Source of the DNA: Candidatus Saelkia tenebricola | GTDB taxonomy: Bacteria; Omnitrophota; Gorgyraeia; Kaelpiales; Kaelpiaceae | Direction: 5' to 3' | DNA: 64,000 nt | Assembly: GCA_030765145.1 (NCBI GenBank) | Contig: JAVCDA010000082.1 | Coordinates: 27,152-91,151 of the forward strand | Shown here: positions 13,406-56,526 of the stretch, one piece after another | Layout: each line of letters begins with the position of its first letter | Position numbering within the stretch: position 1 is the stretch's first letter | Notes under the pieces: model-generated | What the model saw: the letters and a program-made list of their open reading frames with translations, nothing else | Databases searched by the model: none | What the model was told of the DNA's origin: nothing | Translations under genes and position numbers: made by a program

Positions 13406-13480
13406 CGGCCCTAACGGGATTTGAACCCGTGTCGCCGGAATGAGAGTCCGATATCCTAGACCGGGCTAGACGATAGGGCC
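13406..13480 (-). tRNA. tRNA-Glu (anticodon CUC)
   Basis: Reverse complement folds as a cloverleaf: acceptor GGCCCUA/UAGGGCC, anticodon loop CUCUCAU (U33, CUC, A37), T-arm ACGGGTTCAAATCCCGT. Confidence 0.8.
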
Positions 13481-25898: not shown

Positions 25899-26495
25899 CT
25901 AATAAATTTTACAACTATGCAAATACATGTCTTTTTTAAACAATCTGAAAAACTTTTCCTTTTTAAAACCCATTTTTCTTAACAACGAGTTAACTGCAAT
26001 ATTTTTGATAGAAGTAGAAACTTTTACTTTTTTTATTTTGTTTCTATTCATTACACTAAGTACACTGCCTATTAAATTAATAGCATTATTTTCTCCACGC
26101 GATTGGGGATTAATTGATATAAATAAAAGCTCTGCATTTACACTTCTAATGTATGACTTGAATGGATAAAAAGGTAACTCTAAAATTTGCAAAAAACAAA
26201 TTGGATTAATAAGCAATTGCTTAAAATAGATTAAAAATAATTTCCAATCACTCAGTAATTCCGAAAATAATTTTTTGCTGTTCAATGCTGCCATAATAAA
26301 ACCGGCAACGTTTTTATCTTCTACAACTAAGCTGATACAATTTTTAGATTTTATAATTAACCCTAAATATCGCCTTATGAAATTACATCCGAACTTTAGA
26401 AGATATGAATCAAACATATAATCGACATAAAGCTGAAAAATTACATCTAAATCTCCCGGGGATGCATCTCTGATTATTTTCTGTGTTTCCACCAT
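25899..26495 (-). CDS. putative GNAT-family N-acetyltransferase
   Basis: 198 aa; N-terminal IRDASPGDLDVIFQLY and a central QSRGENNAINLIGSVL segment resembling the GNAT acetyl-CoA-binding motif; weak. Confidence 0.4.
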   Translation of the reverse strand: MVETQKIIRDASPGDLDVIFQLYVDYMFDSYLLKFGCNFIRRYLGLIIKSKNCISLVVEDKNVAGFIMAALNSKKLFSELLSDWKLFLIYFKQLLINPICFLQILELPFYPFKSYIRSVNAELLFISINPQSRGENNAINLIGSVLSVMNRNKIKKVKVSTSIKNIAVNSLLRKMGFKKEKFFRLFKKDMYLHSCKIY

Positions 26496-27904
26496 AGAAT
26501 TATAAAAAAAAGCAAAATCTTTATGCCCTTAAAATATTTTGTTACATCAGATAAAGTTTTTATCTTTACCATATGCCTATACCAAATTTTAGGCTGTAAA
26601 TAAAACTTGCAATAAAATTTTCTATAATAATACAGCAATTCATTGTGACTCAAACTTTTAGGAACAAATACAGGCTCCCACAAATTATGCTTAGACAAAT
26701 CTTTAGTGATCATCTTGCCGTATTTCTCAACTAGTGAATATTGAAAAGTATTTTTTAAAGGGGTATTAATTTGAACAGTTATATCTTCTAAAGGCAAGCT
26801 ACAGGCAAAATCTATCGTTTCTTTTATGGTCTCCTTGGTATCAACAAGATGGCCAAGCATAAAAAAAGCTTTTGGTTCTAAATCCAGTTCATATGCCCAT
26901 TGAGCAACACGCCTAACTTGATATTTTATCAAGCCTTTTTTTATAAACTTCAACACATCTTCGTTGCCGGATTCAACACCAATCCGCACTCTCCAACAAC
27001 CAGCAGATTTCATTTCACTTAACAATTCTTTATCTAATACATCAGCTCTTACAGAACAAGTCCAGGTCAAATCCATATTAGCCTTCTTTATTTCTTTCGT
27101 AATTTTATACACTCTATTTTTATTGGGCGTAAAAGTTGAATCTACAAATGCAATGTCTCGCGCCCCAAAATTATCAACCAATTGAGTCATTTCCCGAATC
27201 ATATACTCGGGACTAAAAGTGCGATACTTATTACCAAATACACTCTTGTCACAAAATATACACGAATACGGACAACCTCTACTTGTAATCATACTTAATT
27301 TAGGCAATCTCTTTTGGTCATTAGGCTGAGGTTTATATTTATAAATCGGTACTAAATCTCGAGCTGGGAATGGCAAAATATCCAGATCAGCTATGTATTC
27401 TCTTGGAGGTGAGAAAAAAAGTTCATCCTGCATCGCATAAGCAACACCTTCTACATTTTCAACGACATCTCCTCGTTCCATCACAGATATTAGCTCTTTA
27501 AATGTAACTTCTCCTTCTCCAATTACTGCCAAATCGATTTCCTTATGCCTTAACAAATCCTCGGGATTAGAATTAATGTGCGGCCCTCCGGCTATAATCT
27601 TTATTCCTGGAAGCTTACTTTTTATTTTTTTCGCTAACTCATAACAAGAATAAATCGAAACAGTAAAAGTTGTTAAACCAATTAAATCGGGTTTAAATTT
27701 AACTACTTCCCTTACCGCTTCATCCATAGACAGACCTTCTACAGGCACATCAATAATTTTTACACTTTGACCATCTTTTCTCAAAACTGCGCCAAGATAA
27801 CAAAGACCTAAAGGGGGAGAATTATAAAACAGGCTTCTAACAACAGGACCCAAATTTCTTACTGTCTTAGGAGATAAAGGAGGATTTATTAAAATTACCT
27901 TCAT
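26474..27904 (-). CDS. B12-binding-domain radical SAM protein (class B)
   Basis: MKVILINPP... B12-binding N-terminus; SRGCPYSCIFC; 476 aa. Confidence 0.85.
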   Translation of the reverse strand: MKVILINPPLSPKTVRNLGPVVRSLFYNSPPLGLCYLGAVLRKDGQSVKIIDVPVEGLSMDEAVREVVKFKPDLIGLTTFTVSIYSCYELAKKIKSKLPGIKIIAGGPHINSNPEDLLRHKEIDLAVIGEGEVTFKELISVMERGDVVENVEGVAYAMQDELFFSPPREYIADLDILPFPARDLVPIYKYKPQPNDQKRLPKLSMITSRGCPYSCIFCDKSVFGNKYRTFSPEYMIREMTQLVDNFGARDIAFVDSTFTPNKNRVYKITKEIKKANMDLTWTCSVRADVLDKELLSEMKSAGCWRVRIGVESGNEDVLKFIKKGLIKYQVRRVAQWAYELDLEPKAFFMLGHLVDTKETIKETIDFACSLPLEDITVQINTPLKNTFQYSLVEKYGKMITKDLSKHNLWEPVFVPKSLSHNELLYYYRKFYCKFYLQPKIWYRHMVKIKTLSDVTKYFKGIKILLFFIILWWKHRK

Positions 27905-29415
27905 TGAATTAACAACCTCTTTGGTGAACCATACTCTTTAAACTTCCAAACACTTAAAACCCCTTGCATAATCATCTTTAACCCTACATGAAAAAGCTTG
28001 ATAAAATTAGAGGCTTGCGCGATTAATTTTATCAAAAAAAGATGCTTTTTTAAAAAAACACTGCGAGCTAATAACCTTATTACATTTTTAGGAATGAATG
28101 ATTTTGATATCAGAGAAACTATAGCTACAGCAAATAACTCATCTTCACTCCTTGGATATGAAAAACCAAGTCTAAATTGATAAAAAGACTTATTTGCCCT
28201 ACCTTCTATATCATCTGGGGTAATAATTTTCTTCTCAAGAAAAATTTTACTTAATTCTGTCCCTGGAAACACCGTAAGTGAATAGAGGAACAAGCTGAAC
28301 GGCCTTGGTAAATCAAGCAATAGTGTTATTAATTCTTTTTTATTCTCAGGAGTAGATAATGGATTATCAAATATTAAATCATATACTACATCAAGATTGA
28401 TTTTTTTTGCTTCTTGAGCAAATTTTTTAATCACATCTACTTCTAGCTTTCTATTATAAACCTGCTCTGATTCCTGTACTGATCCGGTTTGAATCCCAAT
28501 TTGAATTCTCTTTAAACCTGCACATTTTAGCTTTTTTAAATTACTTTTATCCAGACATTGAGCATTAAATAGAATTTCAAACGGTAATTTAACACGTTGT
28601 CGATATTTTTTACAAAATTCATCTATCCAATACGCTGGAAAAATAAACGTATCGTCATCAAACTTTATCTTCTTAATTTTTTTAAACCGGCTTAATCCAA
28701 CTTCAATCTCAGATAAAACTTTTTCAACACTACCTATACGATAATATCGTTGATTTTGATATAGAGCCCTGTAAATGCTATTATAGCAATAACTGCAATT
28801 AAAAGGGCAACCGCGAGATGCAAAAACCCGTAACTCCTTTGCACTAACCAAGGGATCGATATTTTTTAAATCTTTGTCTATAAAGAACTTGTTTACACCC
28901 CCGTAATCTTGAGGAGGTAAAATATCTAAATCTTGGATTAAAGGTCTTAGATCCTCAAAAATTACTTTATCATCTTTTTTATAACAAAGATTTTTGATCC
29001 CTTCTAACGTCCATCTTCCAGCCAGAGCTCTAGCAAGATCAAGCATTACATGCTCCCCTTCCCCTCTGCAGATAAAATCACAATACTCTAAAGATTCTCG
29101 AGGCTCAACTGTTGCATGTATGCCTCCCCAAGCTATTTTAATATCCAATGAAGATTTCATTTGCATTGTAAGATCTTGGGCAATTTTTAAAAAAGGTGAA
29201 GTAAAGCTTATTCCTACAAGATCAATCTCTAGTTCTTTACACAATGACACTAGATGTCTTTTTTCTTTTTCACTTGGGTAATGCATATCATTATTTAACC
29301 ATCTCTTGAAAAAGATAAGATAAACATTGAATCCATTCTGTTTTAAAAACGAGGAAATCGACCTTATACCGTTATTTTCAACACCATATAATGAAATTAA
29401 GGCTATATTAAGCAT
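27901..29415 (-). CDS. B12-binding-domain radical SAM protein (class B)
   Basis: N-terminal B12-binding-like domain; SRGCPFNCSYC; 504 aa. Confidence 0.85.
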   Translation of the reverse strand: MLNIALISLYGVENNGIRSISSFLKQNGFNVYLIFFKRWLNNDMHYPSEKEKRHLVSLCKELEIDLVGISFTSPFLKIAQDLTMQMKSSLDIKIAWGGIHATVEPRESLEYCDFICRGEGEHVMLDLARALAGRWTLEGIKNLCYKKDDKVIFEDLRPLIQDLDILPPQDYGGVNKFFIDKDLKNIDPLVSAKELRVFASRGCPFNCSYCYNSIYRALYQNQRYYRIGSVEKVLSEIEVGLSRFKKIKKIKFDDDTFIFPAYWIDEFCKKYRQRVKLPFEILFNAQCLDKSNLKKLKCAGLKRIQIGIQTGSVQESEQVYNRKLEVDVIKKFAQEAKKINLDVVYDLIFDNPLSTPENKKELITLLLDLPRPFSLFLYSLTVFPGTELSKIFLEKKIITPDDIEGRANKSFYQFRLGFSYPRSEDELFAVAIVSLISKSFIPKNVIRLLARSVFLKKHLFLIKLIAQASNFIKLFHVGLKMIMQGVLSVWKFKEYGSPKRLLIQ

Positions 29416-30219
29416 TTAAATCGGTATTTCTGGTTGAAATACAATTCTATCAATCCCCAATTCACCTAAATTAGAGGGCAGTTTATCCCAATATAAAAAA
29501 TATGTATTGCCCTTCAAAATTAAATCTCCGGGAATAGATTTATGTCTCAGCTTAAAATTGCAAATTCTACATTCAGCTTTGCAATCTTCGATCAAACGCA
29601 ATCTAAAATTTTGCCTAAAAGCCTTATTTGTAGGACAAAGTCTTGTAGTGGAGATATAAACAAATGGATAATATATAGAAGCTTTTATTTTAGACATCGA
29701 AGGCCGACCTATCCCAAGAGGAAGATTATCAAGCTCTATTCTTTCTATTCCTAACTCCGACAATAATAAAATAACTTCTTCTCTATCTAAATATGTTGAT
29801 GAGAAATGCTCTATTAAATCAGCGGGTAATTTATTTAGTATATTAGCTAAACGCGGACCTCTTTTTTGCCGATTTAGAAGTCTGCCTAAAACTAATTTAA
29901 AATCATATTTTTTATTTCTTATTAATTCTAACACCCCAAAATCATTTACAATTACCTCTCCTTTAAATCCCAAAGAATTTAAGAATTCGAATACCACCAA
30001 TAATCGTTTAATACCAAGATCTGTAACATAAGGAGTCAGATAACTTAGTTTAATATTCCTTTCTTTACACAACTTTATCATCTGTGATGTTTCATTGATT
30101 CCAGGAATAAGATGTTCACAGAATTCATTGCCAAAATAAATTCTTGTTTCATCCAAACACCTCGGAAAATCTTTTGGAAGATTATTATAATATATAGCTT
30201 TTTCTATCTCTGATAACAT
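29416..30219 (-). CDS. U32-family protein, short form (UbiV-like, putative Fe-S subunit of an O2-independent hydroxylase)
   Basis: 267 aa; TRIYFGNEFCEHL resembles the U32 core; C-terminal four-Cys cluster CPTNK...CKAECRIC in the position of the UbiV [4Fe-4S] ligands; directly downstream of a canonical U32 gene. Confidence 0.5.
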   Translation of the reverse strand: MLSEIEKAIYYNNLPKDFPRCLDETRIYFGNEFCEHLIPGINETSQMIKLCKERNIKLSYLTPYVTDLGIKRLLVVFEFLNSLGFKGEVIVNDFGVLELIRNKKYDFKLVLGRLLNRQKRGPRLANILNKLPADLIEHFSSTYLDREEVILLLSELGIERIELDNLPLGIGRPSMSKIKASIYYPFVYISTTRLCPTNKAFRQNFRLRLIEDCKAECRICNFKLRHKSIPGDLILKGNTYFLYWDKLPSNLGELGIDRIVFQPEIPI

Positions 30220-31259
30220 ATTTCAGCACAAGGATAGTTATAAATTTCTTTAAATAATTCCCTAACAGTTGTTTCATATCCTTCATAAGTACTGTCTTGA
30301 GCAAGTTCAATCGCCGCTTTTAAAAATTTTATATCTTTTACCTTCTTTACAGTTTGGTAATTTCTTCCTACAATTTTAAAAACCTCAATACCGGATTTTA
30401 TTAATTCAAAAACCTCACACACCCGGCAAGGATCAATCCCTGTATCAAGAGAAAAATATTTTCTAATATTACTTTTTATTTTTGATAACTGCTTTTCTTC
30501 AACATCAGCTTGAATTTCAATCTTATAATCCAATATACAAGCGCTATCAACCCCCTTAATCAATTTGTTCAGTCCAAGTAAAAAGGGATATTTCCTCTGT
30601 TTCTCGAGGATTTTTAGATCCAGATTAGCTTTTTTCAAAATGTTCCATAGAAATGGGAGCGTATGCTCGCTAACACCATGATGGAAAGTGCAAAATCCAT
30701 CTATATTTTTGCAACCACTGTTTAAAACAAACACTTCCAAATCCATATCAGAATGATTCGCTTTGATATTTCTTATCTCTTCCAATGTTAACTGCCGGGG
30801 TAAAGTTATTCTAAAAGGTGAAAATCTTTTGTAAAACTCTATACTCCAAGAATTAAAACTAGTCGCACACGTACTAACTATTAGTTTCTGCTTTTTGAAT
30901 TCCTCTCTACTTTTCAAATAATCCATGATTCCTAAATCAGCGACAATAAAACCATCTACTCCTGCATCATGAGCATTTTGAATCTCTTGTTTTATAATTT
31001 CTTCTTGATTTCTGGTATAAAATGCATTCAGCGTCATCCAGACAGAAACACCAGATTCATGAGCAATATTAACAATCTTTTTCAATTCTCGATAATCGCC
31101 TAGATTAGCCGAGCTCCACTCTCTTCTATTGGGAGAACCGATATTAGTGTATTTCTCTCTCCAGCTTTTAGTTATAACTCCGCAATATAGTTCATCTGCT
31201 CCTGCTGATATAAGAGAAGAGACTTCATTCGCACTATTAGTCGGGGCAAGAATCTTCAT
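30204..31259 (-). CDS. peptidase U32 family protein (UbiU/RlhA/TrhP-like)
   Basis: N-terminus MKILAPTNSANEVSSLISAGADELYCGV matches the U32 family start (ELLAPAG...AGADAVY.G); 351 aa. Confidence 0.75.
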   Translation of the reverse strand: MKILAPTNSANEVSSLISAGADELYCGVITKSWREKYTNIGSPNRREWSSANLGDYRELKKIVNIAHESGVSVWMTLNAFYTRNQEEIIKQEIQNAHDAGVDGFIVADLGIMDYLKSREEFKKQKLIVSTCATSFNSWSIEFYKRFSPFRITLPRQLTLEEIRNIKANHSDMDLEVFVLNSGCKNIDGFCTFHHGVSEHTLPFLWNILKKANLDLKILEKQRKYPFLLGLNKLIKGVDSACILDYKIEIQADVEEKQLSKIKSNIRKYFSLDTGIDPCRVCEVFELIKSGIEVFKIVGRNYQTVKKVKDIKFLKAAIELAQDSTYEGYETTVRELFKEIYNYPCAEICYQR

Positions 31260-32577
31260 CCCAAAATTTCTCCCGCATTATGTTATCTCTTGCACCAACT
31301 TCGGTTATTCCCAATTCTACGGTCATAGCCCCTTTACCGCAATTCATAGCTATTTGTTCATCGAAACTAAACCTGTCACAGGCAGAAATGAAACCTAACA
31401 ACAAAAAATCTTTTGGAACTAACGATACATTGAACCCATTCTTTAATAAACTTCCGAGCTTAACAAATTTTAATAAATACTTGATTGTTCTAAAATTGAT
31501 AACACCCAGTACAATTTTAAAAATAACGATAATTGGCACAATTTGCTTAGCACTATCTGCCATTTTATCAATTTTTCTTTCGGCGAAATTCAGATTGACT
31601 ATATCACTTATCGACTTATTATTATCTCTAAGAATTAAATAATGCTGATTGTAAAAACACTTCCGGGAGGAAAAAAACCATAGTAAGAGATAGTATAATT
31701 TTTCAAATTTAAGAATTTCATCCCTTTTTATTAACTCAGGACTTTGTGCTTCTAAGGCATCAATCAGCTCATCAGGCATATAGAAAGAATCGGAAGAAAT
31801 TTCTCTGCCCTTGCCTAAAAACCTACAACCTAAAAAAAACACCTCTTTTATATTGCTATGTTTTAAGGCAAATTCTAAAATCCCAGCCATTTCTTTTTCA
31901 TTTACTCCTTTTACAATAGTTGCTTTTAAATCTACACTCAATCCGAGTTTTTTTAAATTATCAAGCGCTTTAAGTTTAATATTAAGTAGCTTCTTGCCTC
32001 TGATTTTCAGATATACTTCATCGCTAAAACCGTCAAACTGTAAATGCACCTCTTTTAAACCTGCTTGTTTAAGCTTCTTTATATAATCAAAATCGGCGAT
32101 TTTGATTCCATTTGTATGGAGTTCGGCAATATTCCCAGATTCAGAAACTAATTTTATAATTTCCGGCAAATCCCCCCTCATAGTAGGCTCTGCCCCCATA
32201 AGACCAATTTTGTAATTCTTTTTACCCCGTAAAAATTCTTTCAATTTTGAGAGTGGATAATCCTGCAGCTTGCTAACATTTGCATTAGCCAAACACATAC
32301 TACAGTTAAGATTACACTTTGAGGTAAGATGTACTAAAAAATCCCGCTGGGGGAAACTTTTTTTTATTAAATAAAAATAAACTTTTTGTAATTGCTTATA
32401 ATAATAGGGGTGGTTTGATATTAAAAGCCGGAAATCTCCATGAGTAGGACAATTTTTTTTTAGGAAAATCTTATTATCTTCCTCAATAATTTCAGCTTCT
32501 ATTTTATTTAAACATTCCGGACAAAGCGATTTTGTTTTTCTTAGTATTTTACTCATTTCTTTAGCGCCATTAACCAT
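31237..32577 (-). CDS. radical SAM protein with N-terminal zinc-ribbon
   Basis: CPECLNK...CPTHG N-terminal Cys4/His-type ribbon, followed by SKCNLNCSMC (Cx3Cx2C); 446 aa. Confidence 0.75.
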   Translation of the reverse strand: MVNGAKEMSKILRKTKSLCPECLNKIEAEIIEEDNKIFLKKNCPTHGDFRLLISNHPYYYKQLQKVYFYLIKKSFPQRDFLVHLTSKCNLNCSMCLANANVSKLQDYPLSKLKEFLRGKKNYKIGLMGAEPTMRGDLPEIIKLVSESGNIAELHTNGIKIADFDYIKKLKQAGLKEVHLQFDGFSDEVYLKIRGKKLLNIKLKALDNLKKLGLSVDLKATIVKGVNEKEMAGILEFALKHSNIKEVFFLGCRFLGKGREISSDSFYMPDELIDALEAQSPELIKRDEILKFEKLYYLLLWFFSSRKCFYNQHYLILRDNNKSISDIVNLNFAERKIDKMADSAKQIVPIIVIFKIVLGVINFRTIKYLLKFVKLGSLLKNGFNVSLVPKDFLLLGFISACDRFSFDEQIAMNCGKGAMTVELGITEVGARDNIMREKFWDEDSCPD

Positions 32578-33572
32578 TCAAATAATGTGTAAGGATTTAA
32601 AGCAAATAGATGATTATATTCCACATAACAGGACGCAGCACAAGCCTTACAAGGGGCAATAGTCATTGAATTAAATGCAGGTTGAAATCCATTTTCTAAT
32701 ATATTAGGCCCATATATCTTATCTACCAACAGCGAACAGGGAAATAAAGAACCATCTGTATCTATATTACAGAATAACTTCCCCGCCAAGCAATTTATCC
32801 CTCCTTTTTCATAATCTAAAGTCGGAACTTTATAATCCGGCCATTCTAAAAGATAATTAAGATAATTAAAGGAAGAAGCAATAGGAGCTTTTTGTTTTTT
32901 AAAATCAATTATTTTTTTAATAGCTTCCCTCAATTCATCATCAGAAGGATAAAGATGTTCATGATTCCTAGATAAATATTCGTTATGGTGAAGTATCTGG
33001 AACGTGGTTTTAAATCCATATCTCATAGCATAATTTATTATTTCTTCTATATACATAATATTAAATTTTGTAAGAACTGTTATTGTCCAGAACGGAATAT
33101 TATTATTTCTTAAGCATTCAAATGCCCGGATAGCTTTTTTAAAATTATCCTTTCCTCTAAGTTTGTCATGTGCTTCCTGGGGCCCATCAAATCCAATGTT
33201 TACATGATCTATTTTTTTAATATCCCGTAATTTCTCAGGCAACAATTGTCCATTTGTATCTAAAGTAACAAAAAATCCTTTTCTCTTAGAATAGCGGATA
33301 ATTTCTCCAATATCACTTCTTAAAAGAGGTTCTCCACCCCAGATACCTAGACGCTCACACCCGGCATGTTTTAGCTGGTCCAATATGTTAATAATATCAC
33401 TTGTTGTGAGCTCTACTTTTTCTCTTTCGGGAATAGCACAATAGAGACAATTAGAAGTACATCGATCTGTTACCGAAAACATAACATTTAAAGGCTTACG
33501 CCGATTTAAAACTTTATATCCTAAACTACCTAATCCCATTTTAAAAATATTTTTAGCTTTCATATTTACCAA
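32553..33572 (-). CDS. radical SAM / SPASM-domain protein
   Basis: DRCTSNCLYC near the N-terminus; C-terminal Cys-rich region (CLAGKLFCNIDTDGSLFPC...CKACAASC) typical of SPASM auxiliary clusters; 339 aa. Confidence 0.8.
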   Translation of the reverse strand: MVNMKAKNIFKMGLGSLGYKVLNRRKPLNVMFSVTDRCTSNCLYCAIPEREKVELTTSDIINILDQLKHAGCERLGIWGGEPLLRSDIGEIIRYSKRKGFFVTLDTNGQLLPEKLRDIKKIDHVNIGFDGPQEAHDKLRGKDNFKKAIRAFECLRNNNIPFWTITVLTKFNIMYIEEIINYAMRYGFKTTFQILHHNEYLSRNHEHLYPSDDELREAIKKIIDFKKQKAPIASSFNYLNYLLEWPDYKVPTLDYEKGGINCLAGKLFCNIDTDGSLFPCSLLVDKIYGPNILENGFQPAFNSMTIAPCKACAASCYVEYNHLFALNPYTLFEWLMALKK

Positions 33573-34770
33573 AATAGTCTTTTAATACCCCCACCATATA
33601 TTCTATATCTACTTTACTTAACTTATGATGAATAGGCAGGTGAAGGATATTTTGCTCTATAAATTCAGCATTAGGACAACTAAAATTTTGTTCTCTAAAA
33701 GGATCTAACAGATGACAGGCTTTAAGAAAACCAATCGTGGAATCAACTCCTTTTTGAAGTAAATATCTTTTAAGATTTTCCCTGTTTTTAACCAGAACCG
33801 GAAAACTTAAATACACAGGATTTGATTTTGCATAAGGATGAGGATAAACTAAATGATTTTTAAAATCATTTAACAATAGAGACATATATTGTCCATTTTC
33901 TCTCCTTTGGTCATTCATTTCTTTAAGTACATTCAGTTGGCTCAGACCAAGACTTGCTTTTATAAATGAAGGATACTTGATCTCGTTGTCAAGCCCATCG
34001 CTTAATAAGATATTTTCTTTAAAAATTGTTTCCAGCAAATCATTTTTCCTAAACGCAAGTAACAGCGGATATAAAAATAGTGAAAAAATAACAGGATTGG
34101 AAAAAAGAACAAATAAGAAAGCTTTAATTATCTCAGCTACTACTTCCTTGTCTTCTCTTATCACCTCTTGACACATTGATTTTAAACCTTCATCGTCGGT
34201 AACAAGCATGCCTCCAGAAAGTGTTGTAAAATTTTTAGTAATGGAAAAGGAATAAAATGAAGCATGGCCAAAGCTTCCCGATAATTTATTTTCATACATT
34301 GCCCCCAAAGACTGAGCACAATCTTCTATTAGATACATCGTGTTATCTTGGGCAAATTTTATTATTTTATTCATATCAGCACTAAGTCCAAAAAGATTTG
34401 CTGATACAACAGCTAGGCAATCATTATATTTTTTAGAATCTTCTACTTCTAAAAGAAAACTTTCTCTTCCAACATCGAAAAAGATCGGCTTAAGATTTAA
34501 CTTTGATATCATAAGCGGAACTGATGGATGCGTAAAAGATGGCATAATAACTTTTTTTCTTTTATCTTGATAAGCTAAATTTTGCAGTATTAATTGGAGA
34601 GCACACCTTCCTGATGGAGTAAATATTGCATATTTTCTATTTAAAAAAGAAGCAAATTGTTCTTCAAATCTATTTATAATATTTGGAACATCTGCTTTCT
34701 TAAAAAAAACGCTAAAATCATCTAATTTAATAGCAGGGGAAAATCGTGGTATTATTTTAAACTTTTTCAT
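33553..34770 (-). CDS. DegT/DnrJ/EryC1/StrS-family PLP-dependent sugar aminotransferase/dehydratase
   Basis: 405 aa; family-typical N-terminus (spacer ...FEEQFASFLNRKYAIFTPSGRCALQL); SITKNFT places a Lys in the Schiff-base position. Confidence 0.85.
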   Translation of the reverse strand: MKKFKIIPRFSPAIKLDDFSVFFKKADVPNIINRFEEQFASFLNRKYAIFTPSGRCALQLILQNLAYQDKRKKVIMPSFTHPSVPLMISKLNLKPIFFDVGRESFLLEVEDSKKYNDCLAVVSANLFGLSADMNKIIKFAQDNTMYLIEDCAQSLGAMYENKLSGSFGHASFYSFSITKNFTTLSGGMLVTDDEGLKSMCQEVIREDKEVVAEIIKAFLFVLFSNPVIFSLFLYPLLLAFRKNDLLETIFKENILLSDGLDNEIKYPSFIKASLGLSQLNVLKEMNDQRRENGQYMSLLLNDFKNHLVYPHPYAKSNPVYLSFPVLVKNRENLKRYLLQKGVDSTIGFLKACHLLDPFREQNFSCPNAEFIEQNILHLPIHHKLSKVDIEYMVGVLKDYFGKYES

Positions 34771-34777
34771 TACGAAA

Positions 34778-36118
34778 TCAAATTAGAGGGTTAATTCCTT
34801 CTGCTACCTCTAATGCATTTTCAATACACTCATCCATGTTATTATACCAGAAAAGCCCCTGCCTCCCGGCAAGTTTTATATTCTTGAAAACTTTTAAATA
34901 ATCAAGGAAATCGTCCTTCTTTTCTACAAAATCTAGAGTATATACTGGATAAGCATTGTCTATTCTCTTAATTAGAATGTCTTGAATCTGAGCTGTTTTA
35001 TTAACAACCCTTATTTCTTTTAAATCGTTGAGGATTTTTTCTTTTAACTCTAAAGGAGAAAGTGAATATTCATCGCTTTTGTCATAACTTCTTTCTATTA
35101 TTATCGATGCCTTACCCGGCATCGCAAGATTACTCGAGAAACAAGATGGAATAGATAAACGATGGAATGATATATTTTTATCACTATAGTAACACCATTG
35201 AAATTTCTTGAGCAGATCTTGCTCTTCAAATAAGAGAAAAAATACTTGCAAGGGGTGATAAATCAACTTTAATTCTTTATAATTTAAAATCCTGGCTAAA
35301 ATAGTCAGAGGCGCTGTCCAGATAACCTGAGAAGGCAGAATAGCTTCATTCTTTAGAATAACTTTTGTAAGCTGTTTATCCTTAATCTCAATGTCGATTA
35401 CCTCTTCACTGGTCTTAATTACACCACCTTTGTCTTTTATAAGAGACATTAAAGTATCTGCAAACATCCCTACACCGTTTATGGGATAAAAATAATTTTT
35501 TGTAAACTTTTTTGATCTAAAAAGCATTAATGCTACATCTTTTAAGTTGCGGGAATATATCCTTTCATCTATGACAGCTTTTTCAATTCCAGCTTTTGCC
35601 CAAATCCAATGAATTTTATCTGCTGAACAGGACAAAAATTTATCTGATAAATTTTTGAAAAAAATATTATATATTGTTTTACCGTATCTATCTTTTATAT
35701 AACTTGCATAATTCACTTCTGGTTCAATGGAAACAATTTTAATATTAAAAACAAAATCTCTTAAAATCAAAAACAGTGTTTTAAAACGCAAATTGAAAAT
35801 ATCGATAAAAGACAACGGCCAATTAAAATATCTGCCCTGACAATAAATTAAACTAGACCTTTTGATTTCCTTAAGATTACTACCTAAAATTTGATAAATA
35901 TAATCAACAATTTCTTCGTTATTACTATAGAATCTATGAGGACCGATATCGAATTTCATCCCGTTATAATTGAGTGTTCTCCCTAATCCACCTACCTGAT
36001 TTTCTTTTTCTATGACAATTACAGACAAACCTTTTTTGATCAACTCATGAGCAACTACAAGACCTGTTAATCCTGCTCCTACAACTACAATCGGTTTTTT
36101 TATTATTTTATCTCCCAT
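34778..36118 (-). CDS. FAD-dependent oxidoreductase (UGM / amine-oxidase-like), paralog 2
   Basis: VVVGAGLTGLVVAHELIKKGLSVIVIEKENQVGGL dinucleotide-binding motif; GPHRFY and IYCQGRYFNWPL motifs parallel the 18866 and 42406 paralogs. Confidence 0.7.
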   Translation of the reverse strand: MGDKIIKKPIVVVGAGLTGLVVAHELIKKGLSVIVIEKENQVGGLGRTLNYNGMKFDIGPHRFYSNNEEIVDYIYQILGSNLKEIKRSSLIYCQGRYFNWPLSFIDIFNLRFKTLFLILRDFVFNIKIVSIEPEVNYASYIKDRYGKTIYNIFFKNLSDKFLSCSADKIHWIWAKAGIEKAVIDERIYSRNLKDVALMLFRSKKFTKNYFYPINGVGMFADTLMSLIKDKGGVIKTSEEVIDIEIKDKQLTKVILKNEAILPSQVIWTAPLTILARILNYKELKLIYHPLQVFFLLFEEQDLLKKFQWCYYSDKNISFHRLSIPSCFSSNLAMPGKASIIIERSYDKSDEYSLSPLELKEKILNDLKEIRVVNKTAQIQDILIKRIDNAYPVYTLDFVEKKDDFLDYLKVFKNIKLAGRQGLFWYNNMDECIENALEVAEGINPLI

Positions 36119-36119
36119 T

Positions 36120-37538
36120 TTACACTCTTGTTAACGAACGATATATATAAGGCAAAAATTTTATAGTGAAAACAGGATTTTTAACGAAATTTATTAACCC
36201 TGAATTATTTATAATAGACCAAATCACTCCGGATCTAAAATAAAACTCCCGATATGCCTTCCTCTTTAGCTTATATAAATCCTTCTCTTTTAAATCATTA
36301 GGAATAAAATATGGCCGTGTATTTAAAATATTATTCTTTGTGTATTCTTTCCAGTAATCAACAGGAAAATATCTCTCATCAAGCGCCCGCCTATAAATCT
36401 CTGTTTTTGGCAATCCTATTGTAATTGTAAAGCTCGCCCAATCCAACGGTAAAGTTTTTGCAAAATCAATGGTTTTTAAAATGCTTTCATATGTTTCCCC
36501 TGGATAAGCAAGCATAAAATAACTTCTCAACTCAAATCCATTTTTTTTTGCAAGCCTTGTTTTTTCCCGGATTTCTTTTAAATCTAATCCTTTATTCATT
36601 TCATCTAATGTGCTTTGGTTACCTGATTCAATTCCAAGATTTAATCTATAGCATCCAGCACTTCTAAGAGCTCTAAGGATATCTTTATCCAACAAATCGA
36701 CCCTGGTTCTTATATTCCAGATAAATTTTAATTTCCTTTTTGCTATGAGATCACATATTTTAAATACCCTTTCTTTCTCAATTGCAAATGTTTCATCAAA
36801 AATAATAAGCTCTTTTATCCCGTATTTATTAATAAGTATATCCATCTCTTCTACAACATTTTCAGCACTACGAGCCCGATACTTACCTAAATAACCCTGG
36901 AAACAAAAATTACATTTATAAGGACACCCGCGAGACGTGATCATTGTAAAAAATGGATATTTTACAGTTAGTGCAAGATATTTTTTATAAGACAATAAAT
37001 CTATAGCTGGGAAAGGGATACCATCTAAATTCTCTATCTCAACTCTGGGAGAATTTATAATTACTTTGCCATTTTCTTTAAATATGCACCCATCGACATT
37101 AATTAATCCCTGTTTTTGATTAATCCTCTTAAGTGTTTCTATAATTGTATGCTCTCCTTCACCAAAGATGCCAAAATCAATTGCATCTGCTTGCAATGAT
37201 TCTTTTGGATATACTGACAGCTGTGGCCCTCCTACACCGATAATGATATCAGGCAACGTTTTTTTTACGATTCTTGCTATAGCAACAACATCTTGCCATA
37301 GCAATGTTGTAGCAGTAATTAGTAAAATATCGGGGGCAATTTTTTTTACAAATTTCTCAAAAACATTTATATTAAAAAAGTATGTTTCTAAATCTAAAAT
37401 TTTAACGTTGTTACCGCTATCTCTTAGCACCGAAGCAATATATGCCAATCCTAAAGGAGGATAAATCCCGGTAATATTTGTTTGTAAAAAAGTTCCATTT
37501 TTTCTGGTTTCCTGCGGTTTAATTAAAAGTACGTTCAT
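36120..37538 (-). CDS. B12-binding-domain radical SAM protein (class B)
   Basis: MNVLLIKPQ... B12-binding N-terminus; SRGCPYKCNFC; 472 aa; first gene of a roughly 10-gene minus-strand run preceded by a 370-bp leader. Confidence 0.85.
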   Translation of the reverse strand: MNVLLIKPQETRKNGTFLQTNITGIYPPLGLAYIASVLRDSGNNVKILDLETYFFNINVFEKFVKKIAPDILLITATTLLWQDVVAIARIVKKTLPDIIIGVGGPQLSVYPKESLQADAIDFGIFGEGEHTIIETLKRINQKQGLINVDGCIFKENGKVIINSPRVEIENLDGIPFPAIDLLSYKKYLALTVKYPFFTMITSRGCPYKCNFCFQGYLGKYRARSAENVVEEMDILINKYGIKELIIFDETFAIEKERVFKICDLIAKRKLKFIWNIRTRVDLLDKDILRALRSAGCYRLNLGIESGNQSTLDEMNKGLDLKEIREKTRLAKKNGFELRSYFMLAYPGETYESILKTIDFAKTLPLDWASFTITIGLPKTEIYRRALDERYFPVDYWKEYTKNNILNTRPYFIPNDLKEKDLYKLKRKAYREFYFRSGVIWSIINNSGLINFVKNPVFTIKFLPYIYRSLTRV

Positions 37539-53711: not shown

Positions 53712-54331
53712 AGGGAATAGAATTGCTTTTTAGAAATAAACTTATTGCCCTTGATAAAAAATCGCCAGGGATAATCTTTTGCACATTGAGCATAATCAAT
53801 ATTTATCCTGGGAGCTAGAGCTATTTCTTTTGAAGAGACCTTTTCACCTTCTAAAAAATACAGCCGGTTATTTTCAACACTCCTACCATAAAATTCCTTG
53901 TTTAGACCTAAAGCCTGAGCAATTTTTGAAGGACCATTAGCAAGATGTAAGAAATTAAAATTATTCATATTTCTGTTTTTTTTTAATATTTCAACTCCTT
54001 CTAAAGGCTCTGCAGCTCTAATAAAAACCGCTTGGGGAATATTTTTTTTATTTGTAACCACATTAAGACAATAATAGATGCCATAAATACTATAGATATA
54101 AAACACCCCTCCGTTTTCATACATTACTTTATTTCTGTCCGTTAAGCGTCCCCTATAGGAATGAGAAGCATCATCATCTACACCCATATATGCTTCTGTT
54201 TCGACAATTTTTAACACACACTTACCTTCTGAAGTCTCTCTAACCAAATATTTGCCAAGCATATTTCGGGCAACTTTAAGAGCTGATTTTTGAAAAAATT
54301 CCCTCTTTATCTTTTTCATATCAGGCTTCAT
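53708..54331 (-). CDS. mpg: DNA-3-methyladenine glycosylase (Mpg/AAG family)
   Basis: ALKVARNMLGKYLVRE...IVETEAYMG...DDASHSYRGRLTDRNKVMYENGGVFYIY matches the AAG/Mpg fold; 207 aa. Confidence 0.85.
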   Translation of the reverse strand: MKPDMKKIKREFFQKSALKVARNMLGKYLVRETSEGKCVLKIVETEAYMGVDDDASHSYRGRLTDRNKVMYENGGVFYIYSIYGIYYCLNVVTNKKNIPQAVFIRAAEPLEGVEILKKNRNMNNFNFLHLANGPSKIAQALGLNKEFYGRSVENNRLYFLEGEKVSSKEIALAPRINIDYAQCAKDYPWRFFIKGNKFISKKQFYSL

Positions 54332-54373
54332 TATAACGTGCAGAGTTTATTAATAAAAGTTATAATGCTAACT

Positions 54374-55471
54374 ATGAACATATTACTCCTAACCAAACAT
54401 TTAAATTTGGGAGGCATTCCCAGATATGTTATAGATCTCGGGGATATTCTCATAAAAAAAGGACATAAAGTCTGGATAGCGAGTTCTGGAGGAACACTTT
54501 TAAAAGAAATTGAAGGAACCAATATCACCCATATCTATATCCCTATAAAAACCAAATCTATTCTAAGTCCTAAAATTATTTTGAGCTGGATGATTTTAAG
54601 GAAAAAACTTAAGACTCACAAAATAGATATTATTCACAGCCATACAAGAGTAACTTCTGTAATCGCTTATTTGCTTTCTAAATCTTTAAATATTAAATAC
54701 CTCACTACAACCCATGGCTTATACAAAAAGAGCGTTTTAAGAAATATTTTCTCTTTCTTAGGATATTGTACTATAGCCATAAGCAGCCAAACTTCTGAAA
54801 GATTAATCACATGGATGGGGTTAAATCCCCGTAAAATTCAAATAATACCTAACGGAATAAATGTTCAAAAGTTCTCTGACTATGATTTAACTAAATCCGA
54901 AGCCAGGCAAAAAATAAACATTCCTCTGGAGAGCTTTGTAATCGGGAATATTTCCCGAATTGAAAAAATAAAAGGACAAGAAATCATAATCAGAGCCGTA
55001 TTCCGTTTAAAAGACAAGATACCAAATTTAAAGCTTCTCTTAGTAGGTGATGGAAAATATAGACATATACTCATTAAGTTGGTTGCTGAGTTAAAATTGA
55101 ACGATAAAGTAATAATTCTACCGGCATCAGAAAATATCAGGCCTGCTCTAAGGGCAATGGATTTATTCTGTTTTACGCCTTATGAAGAACCTTTTGGGCT
55201 TGTTCTTTTAGAAGCAATGGCTATGGAAGTACCCATTATAGCAAGTGATGTCTCAGAGATTCCTGAAATTTTAAACTTTGGCAATTGCGGAGTACTAATC
55301 CAAGCAGGAAATGAAAAAAGTCTTCAGGAAGCAACGGAACAAGTCTATAAAAACAAAATTCCGCTTAAAGATATAACAGGCAAAGCTTTGAAAAGGGTGC
55401 AGGAAAAATACTCCCGGGAAAATATGGTTGATAAAACAATTCAAGTCTATACAGATATTTTAGAAAAATGA
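54374..55471 (+). CDS. glycosyltransferase family 4 (GT-B, RfaG/WaaG-like)
   Basis: MNILLLTKHLNLGGIPRYVIDL N-terminus; C-terminal EPFGLVLLEAMA (E-x7-E motif); start taken at the in-frame ATG 54374, because the ORF-track start at 54290 overlaps mpg. Confidence 0.8.
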   Translation: MNILLLTKHLNLGGIPRYVIDLGDILIKKGHKVWIASSGGTLLKEIEGTNITHIYIPIKTKSILSPKIILSWMILRKKLKTHKIDIIHSHTRVTSVIAYLLSKSLNIKYLTTTHGLYKKSVLRNIFSFLGYCTIAISSQTSERLITWMGLNPRKIQIIPNGINVQKFSDYDLTKSEARQKINIPLESFVIGNISRIEKIKGQEIIIRAVFRLKDKIPNLKLLLVGDGKYRHILIKLVAELKLNDKVIILPASENIRPALRAMDLFCFTPYEEPFGLVLLEAMAMEVPIIASDVSEIPEILNFGNCGVLIQAGNEKSLQEATEQVYKNKIPLKDITGKALKRVQEKYSRENMVDKTIQVYTDILEK

Positions 55472-56526
55472 AGAAAATAGTTGTAGTCGGGGTAAATTGG
55501 ATAGGAGATGCTTTATTTATTATTCCAGCCTTAAAAGCAATTAAAAATTCATTTCCCGATTCTTATTTAACTGTGGCTTTACCAAAGAGGGCAAGCAGAA
55601 TCCTGAAACATAATCCTATAATAGATGAAATAATAATATTTGATGAAAAAGATTCTCAAAGATCTCTTGTAAAAAAAATAAAATTCATATCGATAATCAG
55701 GAAAAAACATTTTGATAAAGTTATTTTCTTCCACCGCTCTTTTACCAGAACTCTTATTTTCAGCCTGGGAAGAATCCCGGAAAGAGAAGGTTATTGTAGA
55801 GGAAAAACAAAATTATTGCTAACTAAATGCGCCCCTAAATTAAATAAAGACAGCGTACATAAAGCAGAATTTTTCTTAGAACTGGTAAAACAGCTAGGTT
55901 ATTCACCTCTTGAGTTAAGCTACCAATTCTATGTAACACCTGAAGATATCAGCCAAGGAAAAACGATATTAAGTTCATTCAAAATAAACCCTCAAGAAAA
56001 AATCATTTCTCTGCATCCAGGAGCAAACTGGGCACCTAAAAGATGGCCTTTACACCATTATATAAAACTAATTGAATTAATTTTAAATTGGGATAATACA
56101 AAAAGAATTTTAATATTAGGAAGTTTAAAAGATAAGCATTTAGCGTTAAAGATAAAATCTGGTTTTAAAAACTCAAAAAATATTTTTGATTTAACCGGGC
56201 TTACTTCTTTAGGCTCATTAGGCGCGATTTCCCTGTTTTCAGATATCTTTATATCCGGAGATTCAGGACCTCTCCATATTGCCTGCGCCTCTATCCCTCT
56301 ATTTCAAACTGATGAATACACAAACGCTTTCTCAATCGGATTGTACGGAGCAACATCCCAGGAATTAACCGGCCCTTTAAATGGAAATTTCGTTACGTTC
56401 GCTGGGGAAAGAAAAAAATCATGTCAATTACCCTGCCATGATTTTAATTGTACAGATTATACATGCATGAAATCAATAATTCCTGAAAAAATATTTGAAA
56501 TTATAAAAAATAAATTATCCACTTAA
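55468..56526 (+). CDS. glycosyltransferase family 9 (LPS heptosyltransferase RfaF/WaaC family)
   Basis: MKKIVVVGVNWIGDALFIIPALKAIKNSFP and GDSGPLHIACA motifs; 352 aa. Confidence 0.85.
   Translation: MKKIVVVGVNWIGDALFIIPALKAIKNSFPDSYLTVALPKRASRILKHNPIIDEIIIFDEKDSQRSLVKKIKFISIIRKKHFDKVIFFHRSFTRTLIFSLGRIPEREGYCRGKTKLLLTKCAPKLNKDSVHKAEFFLELVKQLGYSPLELSYQFYVTPEDISQGKTILSSFKINPQEKIISLHPGANWAPKRWPLHHYIKLIELILNWDNTKRILILGSLKDKHLALKIKSGFKNSKNIFDLTGLTSLGSLGAISLFSDIFISGDSGPLHIACASIPLFQTDEYTNAFSIGLYGATSQELTGPLNGNFVTFAGERKKSCQLPCHDFNCTDYTCMKSIIPEKIFEIIKNKLST

What the first reader, a model, noticed from the sequence alone, without database searches (positions are those of the whole stretch)
29416..31259. 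U32 'peptidase' pair (UbiU/UbiV-like) embedded among radical SAM genes suggests an O2-independent hydroxylase
Gene 30204..31259 has a canonical U32 N-terminus. The adjacent 267-aa gene 29416..30219 has a U32-like core and a four-Cys cluster. Established knowledge: U32 proteins are not peptidases in characterised cases. UbiU/UbiV hydroxylate ubiquinone precursors anaerobically, RlhA hydroxylates 23S rRNA C2501, and TrhP hydroxylates tRNA U34. Prephenate is the oxygen donor for UbiU/UbiV and TrhP. A U32 heterodimer inside an otherwise radical-SAM-based (anaerobic) tailoring cluster points to O2-independent hydroxylation of a non-RNA, non-quinone substrate. That would be a new substrate class for this enzyme family.
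Basis: partly seen in the sequence, partly recalled or inferred. Interest (0 to 1): 0.6.

Follow-up and report, generated by a model that had tools for sequence, protein, structure and literature searches.

The report
Paired iron-sulfur U32 enzymes in radical-SAM operon
Two adjacent genes of an uncultured anaerobic bacterium encode a matched pair of iron-sulfur "U32" proteins, the enzyme type that inserts oxygen atoms without O2; they sit in a radical-SAM operon conserved across phyla, beside cell-envelope sugar genes, which suggests oxygen-free hydroxylation of something other than RNA or a quinone.

Summary
Gene 30204..31259 (-) is a genuine U32 protein (Pfam PF01136, 103 bits). Gene 29416..30219 (-) matches no Pfam or NCBIfam model. 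Its AlphaFold model (pLDDT 91.6) has the U32 structure 5D88 as best PDB match. Its four near-invariant cysteines (C34/C195/C213/C217) align column for column with the four [4Fe-4S] ligands of E. coli UbiV.

The larger protein is not UbiU, TrhP or RlhA. It is about equidistant from all three and carries seven invariant cysteines plus two family-specific insertions.

The two genes overlap by 16 nt inside a tight ten-gene operon that holds five radical-SAM genes. In 26 loci from several bacterial phyla and Nanoarchaeota the pair lies in a related radical-SAM/B12 cassette, most often ordered rSAM, Tes-like rSAM, U32, partner, B12-rSAM. In my NJ tree 19 of 20 cassette pairs form one clade. Elsewhere the same pair sits next to flavoprotein/Fe-S dehydrogenase genes or other radical-SAM genes, and the partner domain is repeatedly fused to SAM methyltransferases.

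A housekeeping RNA or quinone role is unlikely. Hydroxylation, heterodimer formation, prephenate use and the substrate remain inferred. I rate this a new variant of a known kind, of moderately high interest.

The parts
30204..31259 (-). U32 large subunit ('U32U', 351 aa). Soluble TIM-barrel Fe-S protein with seven invariant Cys (C183, C190, C241, C278, C281, C344, C348) and near-invariant C26.
   Evidence: PF01136 103 bits. AF2 model pLDDT 84.5, top PDB match 5D88. Cys conservation in about 200 sequences. CX6C aligns with UbiU/TrhP/RlhA. No TM segment.
29416..30219 (-). Divergent U32-fold small subunit ('U32V-like', 267 aa) with the UbiV-type ligand set C34/C195/C213/C217.
   Evidence: No Pfam/NCBIfam hit. 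AF2 pLDDT 91.6, top PDB match 5D88 at E=4e-6. All four Cys align with E. coli UbiV C39/C180/C193/C197 (ligands from PMC6747719). Conserved 97-100% in 356 sequences. The family has 2154 50%-identity clusters.
31237..32577 (-). Radical-SAM enzyme of the Tes / GDGT-MAS family with N-terminal zinc ribbon. It overlaps the U32U start by 23 nt and is the usual upstream neighbour of the pair in cassette loci.
   Evidence: PF23545 + PF04055. NCBIfam TrsS 205 bits and Tes 170 bits, both below cutoff. PDB 7TOL GDGT-MAS, 177 bits, E=5e-51. Synteny.
32553..33572 (-). Radical-SAM enzyme (339 aa), most similar to PTO1314/PqqE/viperin/BlsE-type enzymes.
   Evidence: PF04055 101 bits, weak DUF3463. NCBIfam and PDB hits all below cutoffs. 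Conserved in cassette loci.
33553..34770 (-). DegT/DnrJ/EryC1-type PLP sugar aminotransferase.
   Evidence: PF01041 203 bits. Present in most cassette loci.
34778..36118 (-). FAD oxidoreductase of the amine-oxidase / UDP-galactopyranose-mutase-like superfamily.
   Evidence: PF01593 and PF13450. PRK07208 family 206 bits, below cutoff. Weak UGM matches in PDB.
36120..37538 (-). B12-binding radical-SAM enzyme, first gene of the operon.
   Evidence: PF02310 + PF04055. 372-nt intergenic region upstream.
27901..29415 (-). B12-binding radical-SAM enzyme. Its last base (29415) directly abuts the first base of the U32V-like ORF (29416).
   Evidence: PF02310 + PF04055. A B12-rSAM follows the pair in cassette loci.
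26474..27904 (-). B12-binding radical-SAM enzyme. Its closest solved relative is the diol-dehydratase AprD4.
   Evidence: PF02310 90 bits, PF04055 87 bits. PDB 6FD2 AprD4, E=2e-26.
25899..26495 (-). 198-aa last gene of the operon, a possible acetyltransferase (very weak RimI match).
   Evidence: TIGR01575 20 bits, far below cutoff. Homologues in five cassette loci.

Best explanation
The two genes encode the subunits of a cytoplasmic, heteromeric iron-sulfur enzyme of the U32 family, built on the plan of UbiU-UbiV.

The small subunit binds one [4Fe-4S] cluster through C34, C195, C213 and C217. The large subunit binds at least one cluster through the CX6C pair C183/C190 plus C241 and one of C278/C281. 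Its remaining invariant cysteines (C281 or C278, C344, C348, perhaps C26) probably form a second metal site.

The enzyme is made from the same transcript as five radical-SAM enzymes, a sugar aminotransferase and a flavoprotein. Like the characterised U32 proteins, it most likely carries out an O2-independent two-electron oxidation of a pathway intermediate that ends in a new C-OH group. The Fe-S clusters would carry the electrons away. An organic oxygen donor such as prephenate is possible.

The product of the operon is most likely a heavily tailored amino-sugar or glycolipid unit. The many GT-C membrane glycosyltransferases in the surrounding island would then place it on the cell envelope.

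Shown here: the fold, the cysteine conservation, the gene pairing and the conserved operon context. Inferred: the complex, the number of clusters, the hydroxylation chemistry, the oxygen donor and the substrate.
For: Fold and family.
- PF01136 for the large subunit.
- Both AF2 models have the U32 structure 5D88 as top PDB match.

Ligands.
- The four invariant Cys of the small subunit align with the experimentally defined UbiV ligands (PMC6747719).
- The CX6C of the large subunit aligns with UbiU C169/C176 and with TrhP/RlhA.
- Conservation is 97-100% over 356 and 200 sequences respectively.

Pairing.
- Start and stop overlap by 16 nt.
- In 70 pairs from the loci examined, a U32U gene lies within 400 nt of a U32V gene on the same strand (gene orders).
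- Pairwise distances of the two subunits correlate at r=0.89.

Pathway membership.
- The order rSAM, Tes-like rSAM, U32U, U32V, B12-rSAM recurs in most of the 26 cassette loci. The taxa are Omnitrophota, Planctomycetes-labelled MAGs, Eremiobacterota/Vulcanimicrobiota, Chloroflexota, Victivallales and Nanoarchaeota.
- 19 of 20 cassette pairs form one clade in my NJ tree.

Support for a hydroxylase reading.
- All characterised U32 proteins are tied to O2-independent hydroxylation (PMC10990095; PMC11574389).
- The small-subunit domain is fused to SAM methyltransferases in four architectures. For the two fusions whose contigs were looked up, a PF01136 gene lies directly upstream or nearby. This mirrors B. 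subtilis trmR-trhP2-trhP1, an O-methyltransferase plus a U32 pair (PMC6599085).
- In other clades the pair sits in operon-like arrays with FAD_binding_4/CCG Fe-S dehydrogenase and ETF genes, which are plausible electron acceptors.

Envelope glycan context.
- Three recognised GT-C proteins, four further 6-9-TM proteins, three UGM-like flavoproteins and AsnB lie in the island.
- LpxK, WaaA, an LpxL-like gene and GT9 genes lie next to it.

Both subunits are soluble, with no predicted TM segment.
Against: - No biochemical datum exists for this subfamily.
- Known U32 substrates are aromatic sp2 carbons (a quinone ring, pyrimidine C5). No gene for an aromatic precursor is evident in the operon. If the substrate is a sugar or an alkyl chain, the proposed U32 mechanism would not transfer directly.
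- The canonical third Cys of the U32 motif is replaced in the large subunit (D or V at position 238), and a helical insert of about 35 residues is present. The active site may therefore differ.
- Sequence-level homology of the small subunit to any U32 protein is weak. hhalign against the large-subunit family gives 44% probability. HMM searches against E. coli U32 proteins are not significant.
- DPANN archaea that carry the cassette may lack the shikimate pathway. That would argue against prephenate as the donor (not tested).
- Most loci with the pair (60 of 86) lack this cassette.
Confidence: 0.5

Rival explanations
1. The pair is an Fe-S oxidoreductase that does not insert oxygen. It could be a dehydrogenase or dehydratase acting on the pathway intermediate, or an electron-transfer module that services the neighbouring radical-SAM and B12 enzymes.
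For: - There are seven to eight invariant Cys in the large subunit plus four in the small one, enough for a multi-cluster electron wire.
- The pair is associated with radical-SAM genes in several unrelated cluster types.
- It is associated with ETF and GlcD/CCG redox proteins.
- The canonical U32 motif is altered.
- Direct hydroxylase activity has not been shown in vitro for any U32 protein (PMC10990095).
Against: - Many loci have the pair without any radical-SAM or B12 gene, so it is not a dedicated rSAM reductase.
- The TIM-barrel fold with family-specific invariant polar residues (NRREW, W205, K209, D214) suggests a substrate pocket rather than a simple ferredoxin.
- The methyltransferase fusions fit a newly made OH group.
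Confidence: 0.27
2. The pair is the lineage's housekeeping RNA hydroxylase (TrhP1/TrhP2- or RlhA-like, making ho5U34 or ho5C2501), and its position in the operon is incidental.
For: - The U32 HMM of this family scores TrhP (87 bits) as high as UbiU (85 bits).
- B. subtilis uses a tandem U32 pair for ho5U.
- Methyltransferase fusions could mimic TrmR.
Against: - The position in the middle of the cassette recurs in 26 loci across phyla and in archaea, with overlapping reading frames.
- The TrhP NCBIfam score is 61 against a cutoff of 534. No TrhP C-terminal domain and no DUF3656 is present.
- The family was found in only 344 of about 185,000 species representatives, which is too patchy for housekeeping.
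- The fused methyltransferases are Methyltransf_11/25 by Pfam, whereas TrmR is described as similar to catechol O-methyltransferase (PMC6599085).
Confidence: 0.07
3. The pair is an orthologue of UbiU/UbiV (or an analogue for another isoprenoid quinone) and works in anaerobic quinone biosynthesis.
For: - The best NCBIfam hit of the large subunit is UbiU.
- The small subunit shares the unusual UbiV ligand layout.
Against: - The UbiU score is 102 against a cutoff of 440.
- No UbiT/SCP2, UbiA, UbiE, UbiG or Men/Mqn gene was found in the window.
- UbiUVT are described in alpha-, beta- and gammaproteobacteria. The hosts here are Omnitrophota, DPANN and similar groups.
- Ca. Saelkia is described as a fermenter with Rnf/Mrp/Sud/HppA, and Nqr is not listed for it.
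Confidence: 0.03
4. The proteins are genuine peptidases of the collagenase (PrtC) type, as the family name says.
For: Source annotations call them 'U32 family peptidase' or 'collagenase-like PrtC family protease'. Collagenolytic activity has been reported for some U32 members (PMC5727448).
Against: - Neither protein has a predicted TM segment or hydrophobic N-terminus.
- The invariant residues are dominated by cysteine clusters.
- The operon context is biosynthetic.
- The host lineages have no obvious collagen substrate.
Confidence: 0.03

Closest known systems
UbiU-UbiV (E. coli YhbU/YhbV), O2-independent ubiquinone hydroxylase
   Same: - Two adjacent genes encode one larger and one smaller U32-type protein.
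- The small subunit has one Cys far upstream plus a C..CX3C group, and all four align with UbiV C39/C180/C193/C197.
- The large subunit shares the CX6C and 26% identity over the N-terminal 190 residues.
   Different: - The large subunit has seven invariant Cys and two insertions. It is no closer to UbiU than to TrhP and lies far below the NCBIfam cutoff.
- The small subunit matches no Pfam model here, whereas UbiV carries PF01136 (PMC6747719).
- No UbiT or ubi genes are present.
- The hosts are non-proteobacterial anaerobes and archaea.
- The context is radical-SAM and glycan tailoring.
TrhP (YegQ) and TrhP1/TrhP2 (YrrO/YrrN), tRNA U34 hydroxylation
   Same: - U32 domain with a CX6C motif. C241 aligns with the fourth Cys of the TrhP CX3C.
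- B. subtilis uses a tandem U32 pair encoded next to an O-methyltransferase. This parallels the methyltransferase fusions seen here.
   Different: - No TrhP C-terminal domain.
- NCBIfam score 61 against a cutoff of 534.
- The third canonical Cys is missing.
- The operon context is biosynthetic, not RNA-related.
RlhA (YdcP), 23S rRNA C2501 hydroxylation
   Same: - U32 domain and CX6C.
- Additional functionally important Cys residues in the C-terminal part (PMC5727448), as in the large subunit here.
   Different: - RlhA has 653 aa and a DUF3656 domain, which is absent here.
- RlhA is a single polypeptide, not a pair.
Mk0906 (PDB 5D88), U32 domain of Methanopyrus kandleri, function unknown
   Same: It is the best structural match for both predicted models.
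   Different: - Only 12-16% sequence identity.
- TM-scores are modest (0.43-0.59).
- It provides no functional information.

Membership tests
Peptidase U32 (Pfam PF01136), large subunit 30204-31259 | Score above the Pfam gathering threshold | tested here: met
   103.4 bits against a cutoff of 22.4, E=1.5e-29.
Peptidase U32 (Pfam PF01136), small subunit 29416-30219 | Score above the Pfam gathering threshold | tested here: not met
   No Pfam hit even at E<=10. The precomputed PF01136 hit on relative P0084 was not reproduced. hhalign against the large-subunit family gives 44% probability.
U32 fold (TIM barrel of 5D88), small subunit | Predicted structure most similar to a solved U32 domain | tested here: met
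   AF2 pLDDT 91.6. Foldseek top hit 5D88, E=4.3e-6, prob 1.0, TM 0.46-0.49.
UbiV | Four [4Fe-4S] ligands in a CXnCX12CX3C layout with the first Cys far upstream | tested here: met
   The layout here is CX160CX17CX3C. All four Cys align with E. coli UbiV C39/C180/C193/C197 and are conserved 97-100%. The middle spacing is 17 rather than 12.
UbiV | Detectable sequence homology to UbiV | tested here: not met
   hhalign probability 0.2%. hmmsearch is not significant. Identity is 17% in the MAFFT alignment.
UbiU (NCBIfam NF047963) | Score above the equivalog cutoff, and a CX6CX16CX38C motif | tested here: not met
   101.7 bits against a cutoff of 440, and only the N-terminal half matches. The motif here is CX6CX50CX36CX2C...CX3C.
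UbiUVT system | Presence of UbiT (SCP2) and ubiquinone pathway genes | tested here: not met
   No SCP2 or Ubi family appeared among the Pfam hits for the window's ORFs. The rest of the genome was not available.
TrhP (NCBIfam NF011996) | Score above the cutoff, and the characteristic C-terminal domain | tested here: not met
   61 bits against a cutoff of 534. The protein ends at residue 351, where TrhP has about 100 more residues.
RlhA | U32 domain together with DUF3656 | tested here: not met
   No DUF3656 hit.
Heterodimeric U32 hydroxylase (functional class) | Physical complex of the two subunits | not testable with these tools
   Indirect support only: the 16-nt overlap, 70 adjacent same-strand pairs in the loci examined and correlated divergence, r=0.89.
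Heterodimeric U32 hydroxylase (functional class) | O2-independent hydroxylation with prephenate as oxygen donor | not testable with these tools
   Inferred from UbiU/V, TrhP and RlhA genetics. No aro or prephenate gene was found in the window.

The most novel reading that the evidence does not exclude
The Pfam-invisible UbiV-like protein and its seven-cysteine U32 partner define a large clade of multi-cluster U32 enzymes that I found described in no paper (about 2,000 sequence clusters, more than 340 species). In this reading the clade serves as a portable oxygen-free hydroxylation module. Strict anaerobes, including ultra-small Omnitrophota and DPANN archaea, would plug it into radical-SAM pathways. 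Here it would hydroxylate a sugar- or lipid-type cell-envelope precursor, which would be the first U32 substrate that is neither RNA nor a quinone. The flavoprotein/Fe-S/ETF genes next to the pair in other clades would be the long-sought electron acceptor of U32 hydroxylases.
Probability: 0.35. Interest if true: 0.8.

Novelty: new variant of a known kind. Interest (0 to 1): 0.58.

Why it matters
U32 proteins are the only known enzymes that use an organic molecule (prephenate) as the oxygen source for hydroxylation. Three substrates are known: ubiquinone precursors, tRNA U34 and rRNA C2501. Most U32 subfamilies are uncharacterised. No in vitro activity has been reported, and the electron acceptor is unknown.

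This locus adds four things.
- A distinct subfamily with a different cysteine architecture.
- A partner family that domain databases miss.
- A biosynthetic context conserved across phyla, which gives a concrete operon to express and a product to look for.
- Recurrent neighbours (GlcD/CCG/ETF genes) and methyltransferase fusions, which suggest testable answers about the electron acceptor and the fate of the new OH group.

It may also help explain how strict anaerobes with tiny genomes decorate their cell surface without O2.

Tried and rejected
- Sequence searches of both proteins against PDB chains gave nothing meaningful.
- BLASTP between the two neighbours gave nothing.
- hhalign of the small-subunit family against single E. 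coli UbiV or UbiU sequences was not significant. HMM searches against the four E. coli U32 proteins were significant only for the large subunit.
- The promoter/terminator scan of the operon found no more sites than shuffled sequence.
- Rfam found no riboswitch, only three tRNAs.
- Literature searches for this cassette or for U32 genes in radical-SAM clusters found no description.
- I considered a lipid (tetraether-like) pathway because of the Tes/GDGT-MAS-like radical-SAM gene. I could not decide between it and a sugar pathway. The DegT, UGM-like, AprD4-like and GT-C genes and the flanking LPS genes tip the balance to a glycan or glycolipid.
- I considered a genomic-island origin (lower GC, flanking tRNA) but did not pursue it.
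- One script call returned no answer, although its files had been written.
Full report
WHAT IS THERE

The window comes from the Omnitrophota MAG Candidatus Saelkia tenebricola. Both proteins are 100% identical to NCBI entries on a 97,676-bp contig. This organism was described from the anoxic zone of Ace Lake as a sugar and alcohol fermenter with Rnf, Mrp, Sud, HppA and a group 4g hydrogenase (PMC8542988).

ORFs 30204..31259 (351 aa) and 29416..30219 (267 aa) lie on the minus strand and overlap by 16 nt. They sit in the middle of ten co-directional genes, 25899..37538, with overlaps or gaps of at most 7 nt. In order these genes are:
- a B12-rSAM;
- an FAD oxidoreductase;
- a DegT aminotransferase;
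- an rSAM;
- a Tes-like rSAM with a zinc ribbon;
- the U32 gene;
- the 267-aa gene;
- two B12-rSAM genes;
- a small, possibly GNAT-like gene.

THE TWO PROTEINS

The 351-aa protein is a clear U32 member.
- It scores 103 bits on PF01136.
- It shares 26% identity with E. coli UbiU over residues 1-191.
- It fails the equivalog cutoffs for UbiU (102 against 440) and TrhP (61 against 534).
- A profile of its family scores TrhP, UbiU and RlhA about equally, at 87, 85 and 71 bits. It is therefore a separate subfamily.

The 267-aa protein has no Pfam or NCBIfam hit at any threshold and no BLASTP similarity to its neighbour.
- With a 33-sequence alignment AlphaFold gives a confident alpha/beta barrel model, pLDDT 91.6.
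- The best match of that model among solved structures is the U32 domain Mk0906, 5D88, E=4e-6. The same entry is the best match for the large subunit's model.
- Profile-profile comparison of the two families gives only 44% probability.
- The partner is therefore a very divergent U32-fold protein that sequence databases do not label.

CYSTEINES

Small subunit. C34, C195, C213 and C217 are invariant in the seed alignment and present in 97-100% of 356 relatives. The other three Cys of the window protein are not conserved. In a MAFFT alignment with E. coli UbiV these four columns coincide exactly with UbiV C39, C180, C193 and C197. Those are the experimentally established [4Fe-4S] ligands, arranged as CXnCX12CX3C with the first Cys far upstream (PMC6747719).

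Large subunit. C183 and C190 form a CX6C that aligns with UbiU C169/C176 and with TrhP and RlhA. C241 aligns with the fourth Cys of the canonical CX6CX15CX3C motif. The third canonical Cys is replaced, mostly by Asp. In addition, C278, C281, C344 and C348 are invariant and C26 is nearly so, in about 200 sequences. Two insertions with invariant residues are specific to this family: an NRREW segment at residues 33-48 and a helical segment at 192-236. Seven to eight conserved Cys suggest two metal sites in this subunit. That is inference, because I could not access model coordinates.

IS THE PAIRING REAL?

A scan of one genome per species found 344 species with a relative of the small subunit. 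I examined 86 loci.
- In 70 pairs from the loci examined, a U32U gene lies within 400 nt of a U32V gene on the same strand (gene orders). Some loci carry two or three tandem pairs.
- Pairwise distances of the two subunits correlate at r=0.89 over 71 pairs.
- The small-subunit family comprises 2,154 clusters at 50% identity in a 1.84-billion-protein library.

Together with the overlapping reading frames, this supports a two-subunit enzyme. It does not prove one.

IS THE RADICAL-SAM CONTEXT REAL?

In 26 loci the pair lies in a related cassette. In most of them the order is rSAM(339), Tes-like rSAM, U32, partner, one or more B12-rSAM genes. A few loci differ in order or lack the Tes-like gene (L010, L017, L020, L021, L023). 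DegT, the FAD protein, a further rSAM and often GT-C genes usually accompany the core.

In a neighbour-joining tree of concatenated pairs, 19 of 20 cassette pairs including the window form one clade. That tree has no bootstrap, so it is indicative only.

This recurrent position makes an incidental housekeeping gene unlikely.

The other 60 loci fall into further context-specific clades:
- GlcD-like FAD_binding_4, CCG Fe-S protein, GlcD-like, U32, partner, often with ETF, in Bathyarchaeia, Dehalococcoidia, Desulfomonilia and Hadarchaeota;
- U32, partner, rSAM units, sometimes repeated and next to an ABC exporter, in Omnitrophota and Iainarchaeota;
- LplA-like, rSAM, partner, U32, DnaJ in Thermodesulfobacteriota.

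The pair thus behaves as a module that has been combined with different partner enzymes.

HINTS ABOUT THE CHEMISTRY

- Every characterised U32 protein is genetically tied to O2-independent hydroxylation: UbiU/V, TrhP, TrhP1/2 and RlhA. Prephenate is required and has been shown to be the O donor for ubiquinone (PMC10990095, PMC11574389, PMC6599085, PMC5727448). No in vitro hydroxylation has been reported.
- The small-subunit domain is fused to class-I SAM methyltransferases in four architectures. One of them is a 1,220-aa protein that also contains a B12-rSAM and a GT4 glycosyltransferase.
- For the two fusions whose contigs were looked up, a PF01136 gene lies upstream on the same strand: directly upstream in L091, one gene away in L090. 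Both loci also hold several rSAM genes.
- A hydroxylase coupled to a methyltransferase is the logic of trmR-trhP2-trhP1 in B. subtilis. From general knowledge, it is also the logic of UbiU/V followed by UbiG.
- The flavoprotein/Fe-S/ETF neighbours in other clades fit the still unidentified electron acceptor postulated for U32 enzymes.

HINTS ABOUT THE SUBSTRATE

The operon lies in a roughly 37-kb island, 13.5-50.7 kb, which holds:
- ten rSAM genes;
- three recognised GT-C glycosyltransferases and four more 560-610-aa proteins with 6-9 predicted TM segments;
- three UGM-like flavoproteins;
- an asparagine-synthase homologue.

Next to the island lie GT4, GT9, LpxL-like, LpxK and WaaA genes.

The closest solved relatives point in two directions.
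- AprD4, an aminoglycoside diol dehydratase, for one B12-rSAM.
- UDP-galactopyranose mutase, weakly, for the flavoprotein.
- GDGT-MAS, the tetraether lipid synthase, for the rSAM directly upstream of the U32 gene: 177 bits, below the Tes cutoff.

I read this as anaerobic tailoring of an amino-sugar or glycolipid unit destined for the envelope. A lipid substrate is not excluded.

A caveat applies. Known U32 substrates are aromatic carbons, and the proposed mechanism needs an oxidisable ring. Nothing in the operon obviously makes one.

VERDICT

It remains an inference on the key points: the complex, hydroxylation, the oxygen donor and the substrate.

The locus is a new variant of a known kind: a distinct, multi-cysteine, heteromeric U32 subfamily in a new biosynthetic context.

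Noticed in passing
P0267, P0314, P0363, P0334; loci L090:2963-6625 and L091:8001-9446: The UbiV-like domain is fused to class-I SAM methyltransferase domains in four architectures. One is a 1,220-aa protein with B12-rSAM, GT4 glycosyltransferase, U32V-like and methyltransferase domains. In the two loci looked up, a PF01136 U32 gene lies upstream on the same strand (directly in L091, one gene away in L090), and several rSAM genes surround it.
   Followed up: partly
L003, L025, L028, L030, L032-L034, L042, L054, L056, L065, L076, L077, L079 (about 8.9-10.8 kb in most): In Bathyarchaeia, Dehalococcoidia/Chloroflexota, Desulfomonilia and Hadarchaeota the pair follows, mostly on the same strand, a GlcD-like FAD_binding_4 / CCG Fe-S / GlcD-like trio, often with an ETF gene nearby. 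These are candidates for the unknown electron acceptor of U32 enzymes.
   Followed up: partly
L040, L049, L078, L085, L074, L039, L041: Some Omnitrophota and Iainarchaeota loci carry two or three tandem copies of the U32 pair. In several of them (not L040) the copies alternate with a distinct rSAM family, and an ABC exporter gene lies nearby in L041, L074 and L085. This may represent a different pathway type, possibly peptide or small-molecule export.
   Followed up: no
L037, L066, L068-L070, L072, L084: Thermodesulfobacteriota show a fixed order: LplA/B-like ligase, a roughly 298-aa rSAM, partner, U32, DnaJ. The pair is in the opposite order to the window.
   Followed up: no
window 31237-32577 (-): A bacterial paralogue of the archaeal tetraether lipid synthase family lies directly upstream of the U32 gene and overlaps it by 23 nt. 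It scores 177 bits against PDB 7TOL GDGT-MAS, and its NCBIfam Tes score of 170 is below the cutoff of 450. Its substrate is unknown.
   Followed up: partly
window 13537-50736: An island of about 37 kb holds ten radical-SAM genes (six with B12 domains), three recognised GT-C proteins, four unannotated 560-610-aa proteins with 6-9 predicted TM segments, three UGM-like flavoproteins and an AsnB homologue. GC is 0.29-0.34, against 0.35-0.37 for the outermost parts of the window (1-14 kb and 56-64 kb). A tRNA gene (13406-13480, -) sits at one edge.
   Followed up: partly
window 54290-63717: Lipid A and LPS core genes (GT4, two GT9, an LpxL-like/ELM1 fusion, LpxK, WaaA) lie next to the island, followed by a tyrosine recombinase (62845-63717).
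   Followed up: no
window 30204-31259 (-), residues C26, C278, C281, C344, C348: There are four to five conserved cysteines beyond those needed for one cluster, including CX2C and CX3C pairs. They are conserved in both cassette and non-cassette clades and suggest a second metal site not described for UbiU.
   Followed up: partly
P0084: The database's precomputed PF01136 assignment for this one member of the small-subunit family is not reproduced with the current Pfam-A at E<=0.01.
   Followed up: yes
L007/L024 (Nanoarchaeota JBDRFR010000033.1): This archaeal locus carries two U32 large-subunit genes, one partner, the Tes-like rSAM on the opposite strand, a carbamoyltransferase, a MiaB-like rSAM, a GT2 and a GT-C. 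Its pair falls outside the main cassette clade in the NJ tree.
   Followed up: no
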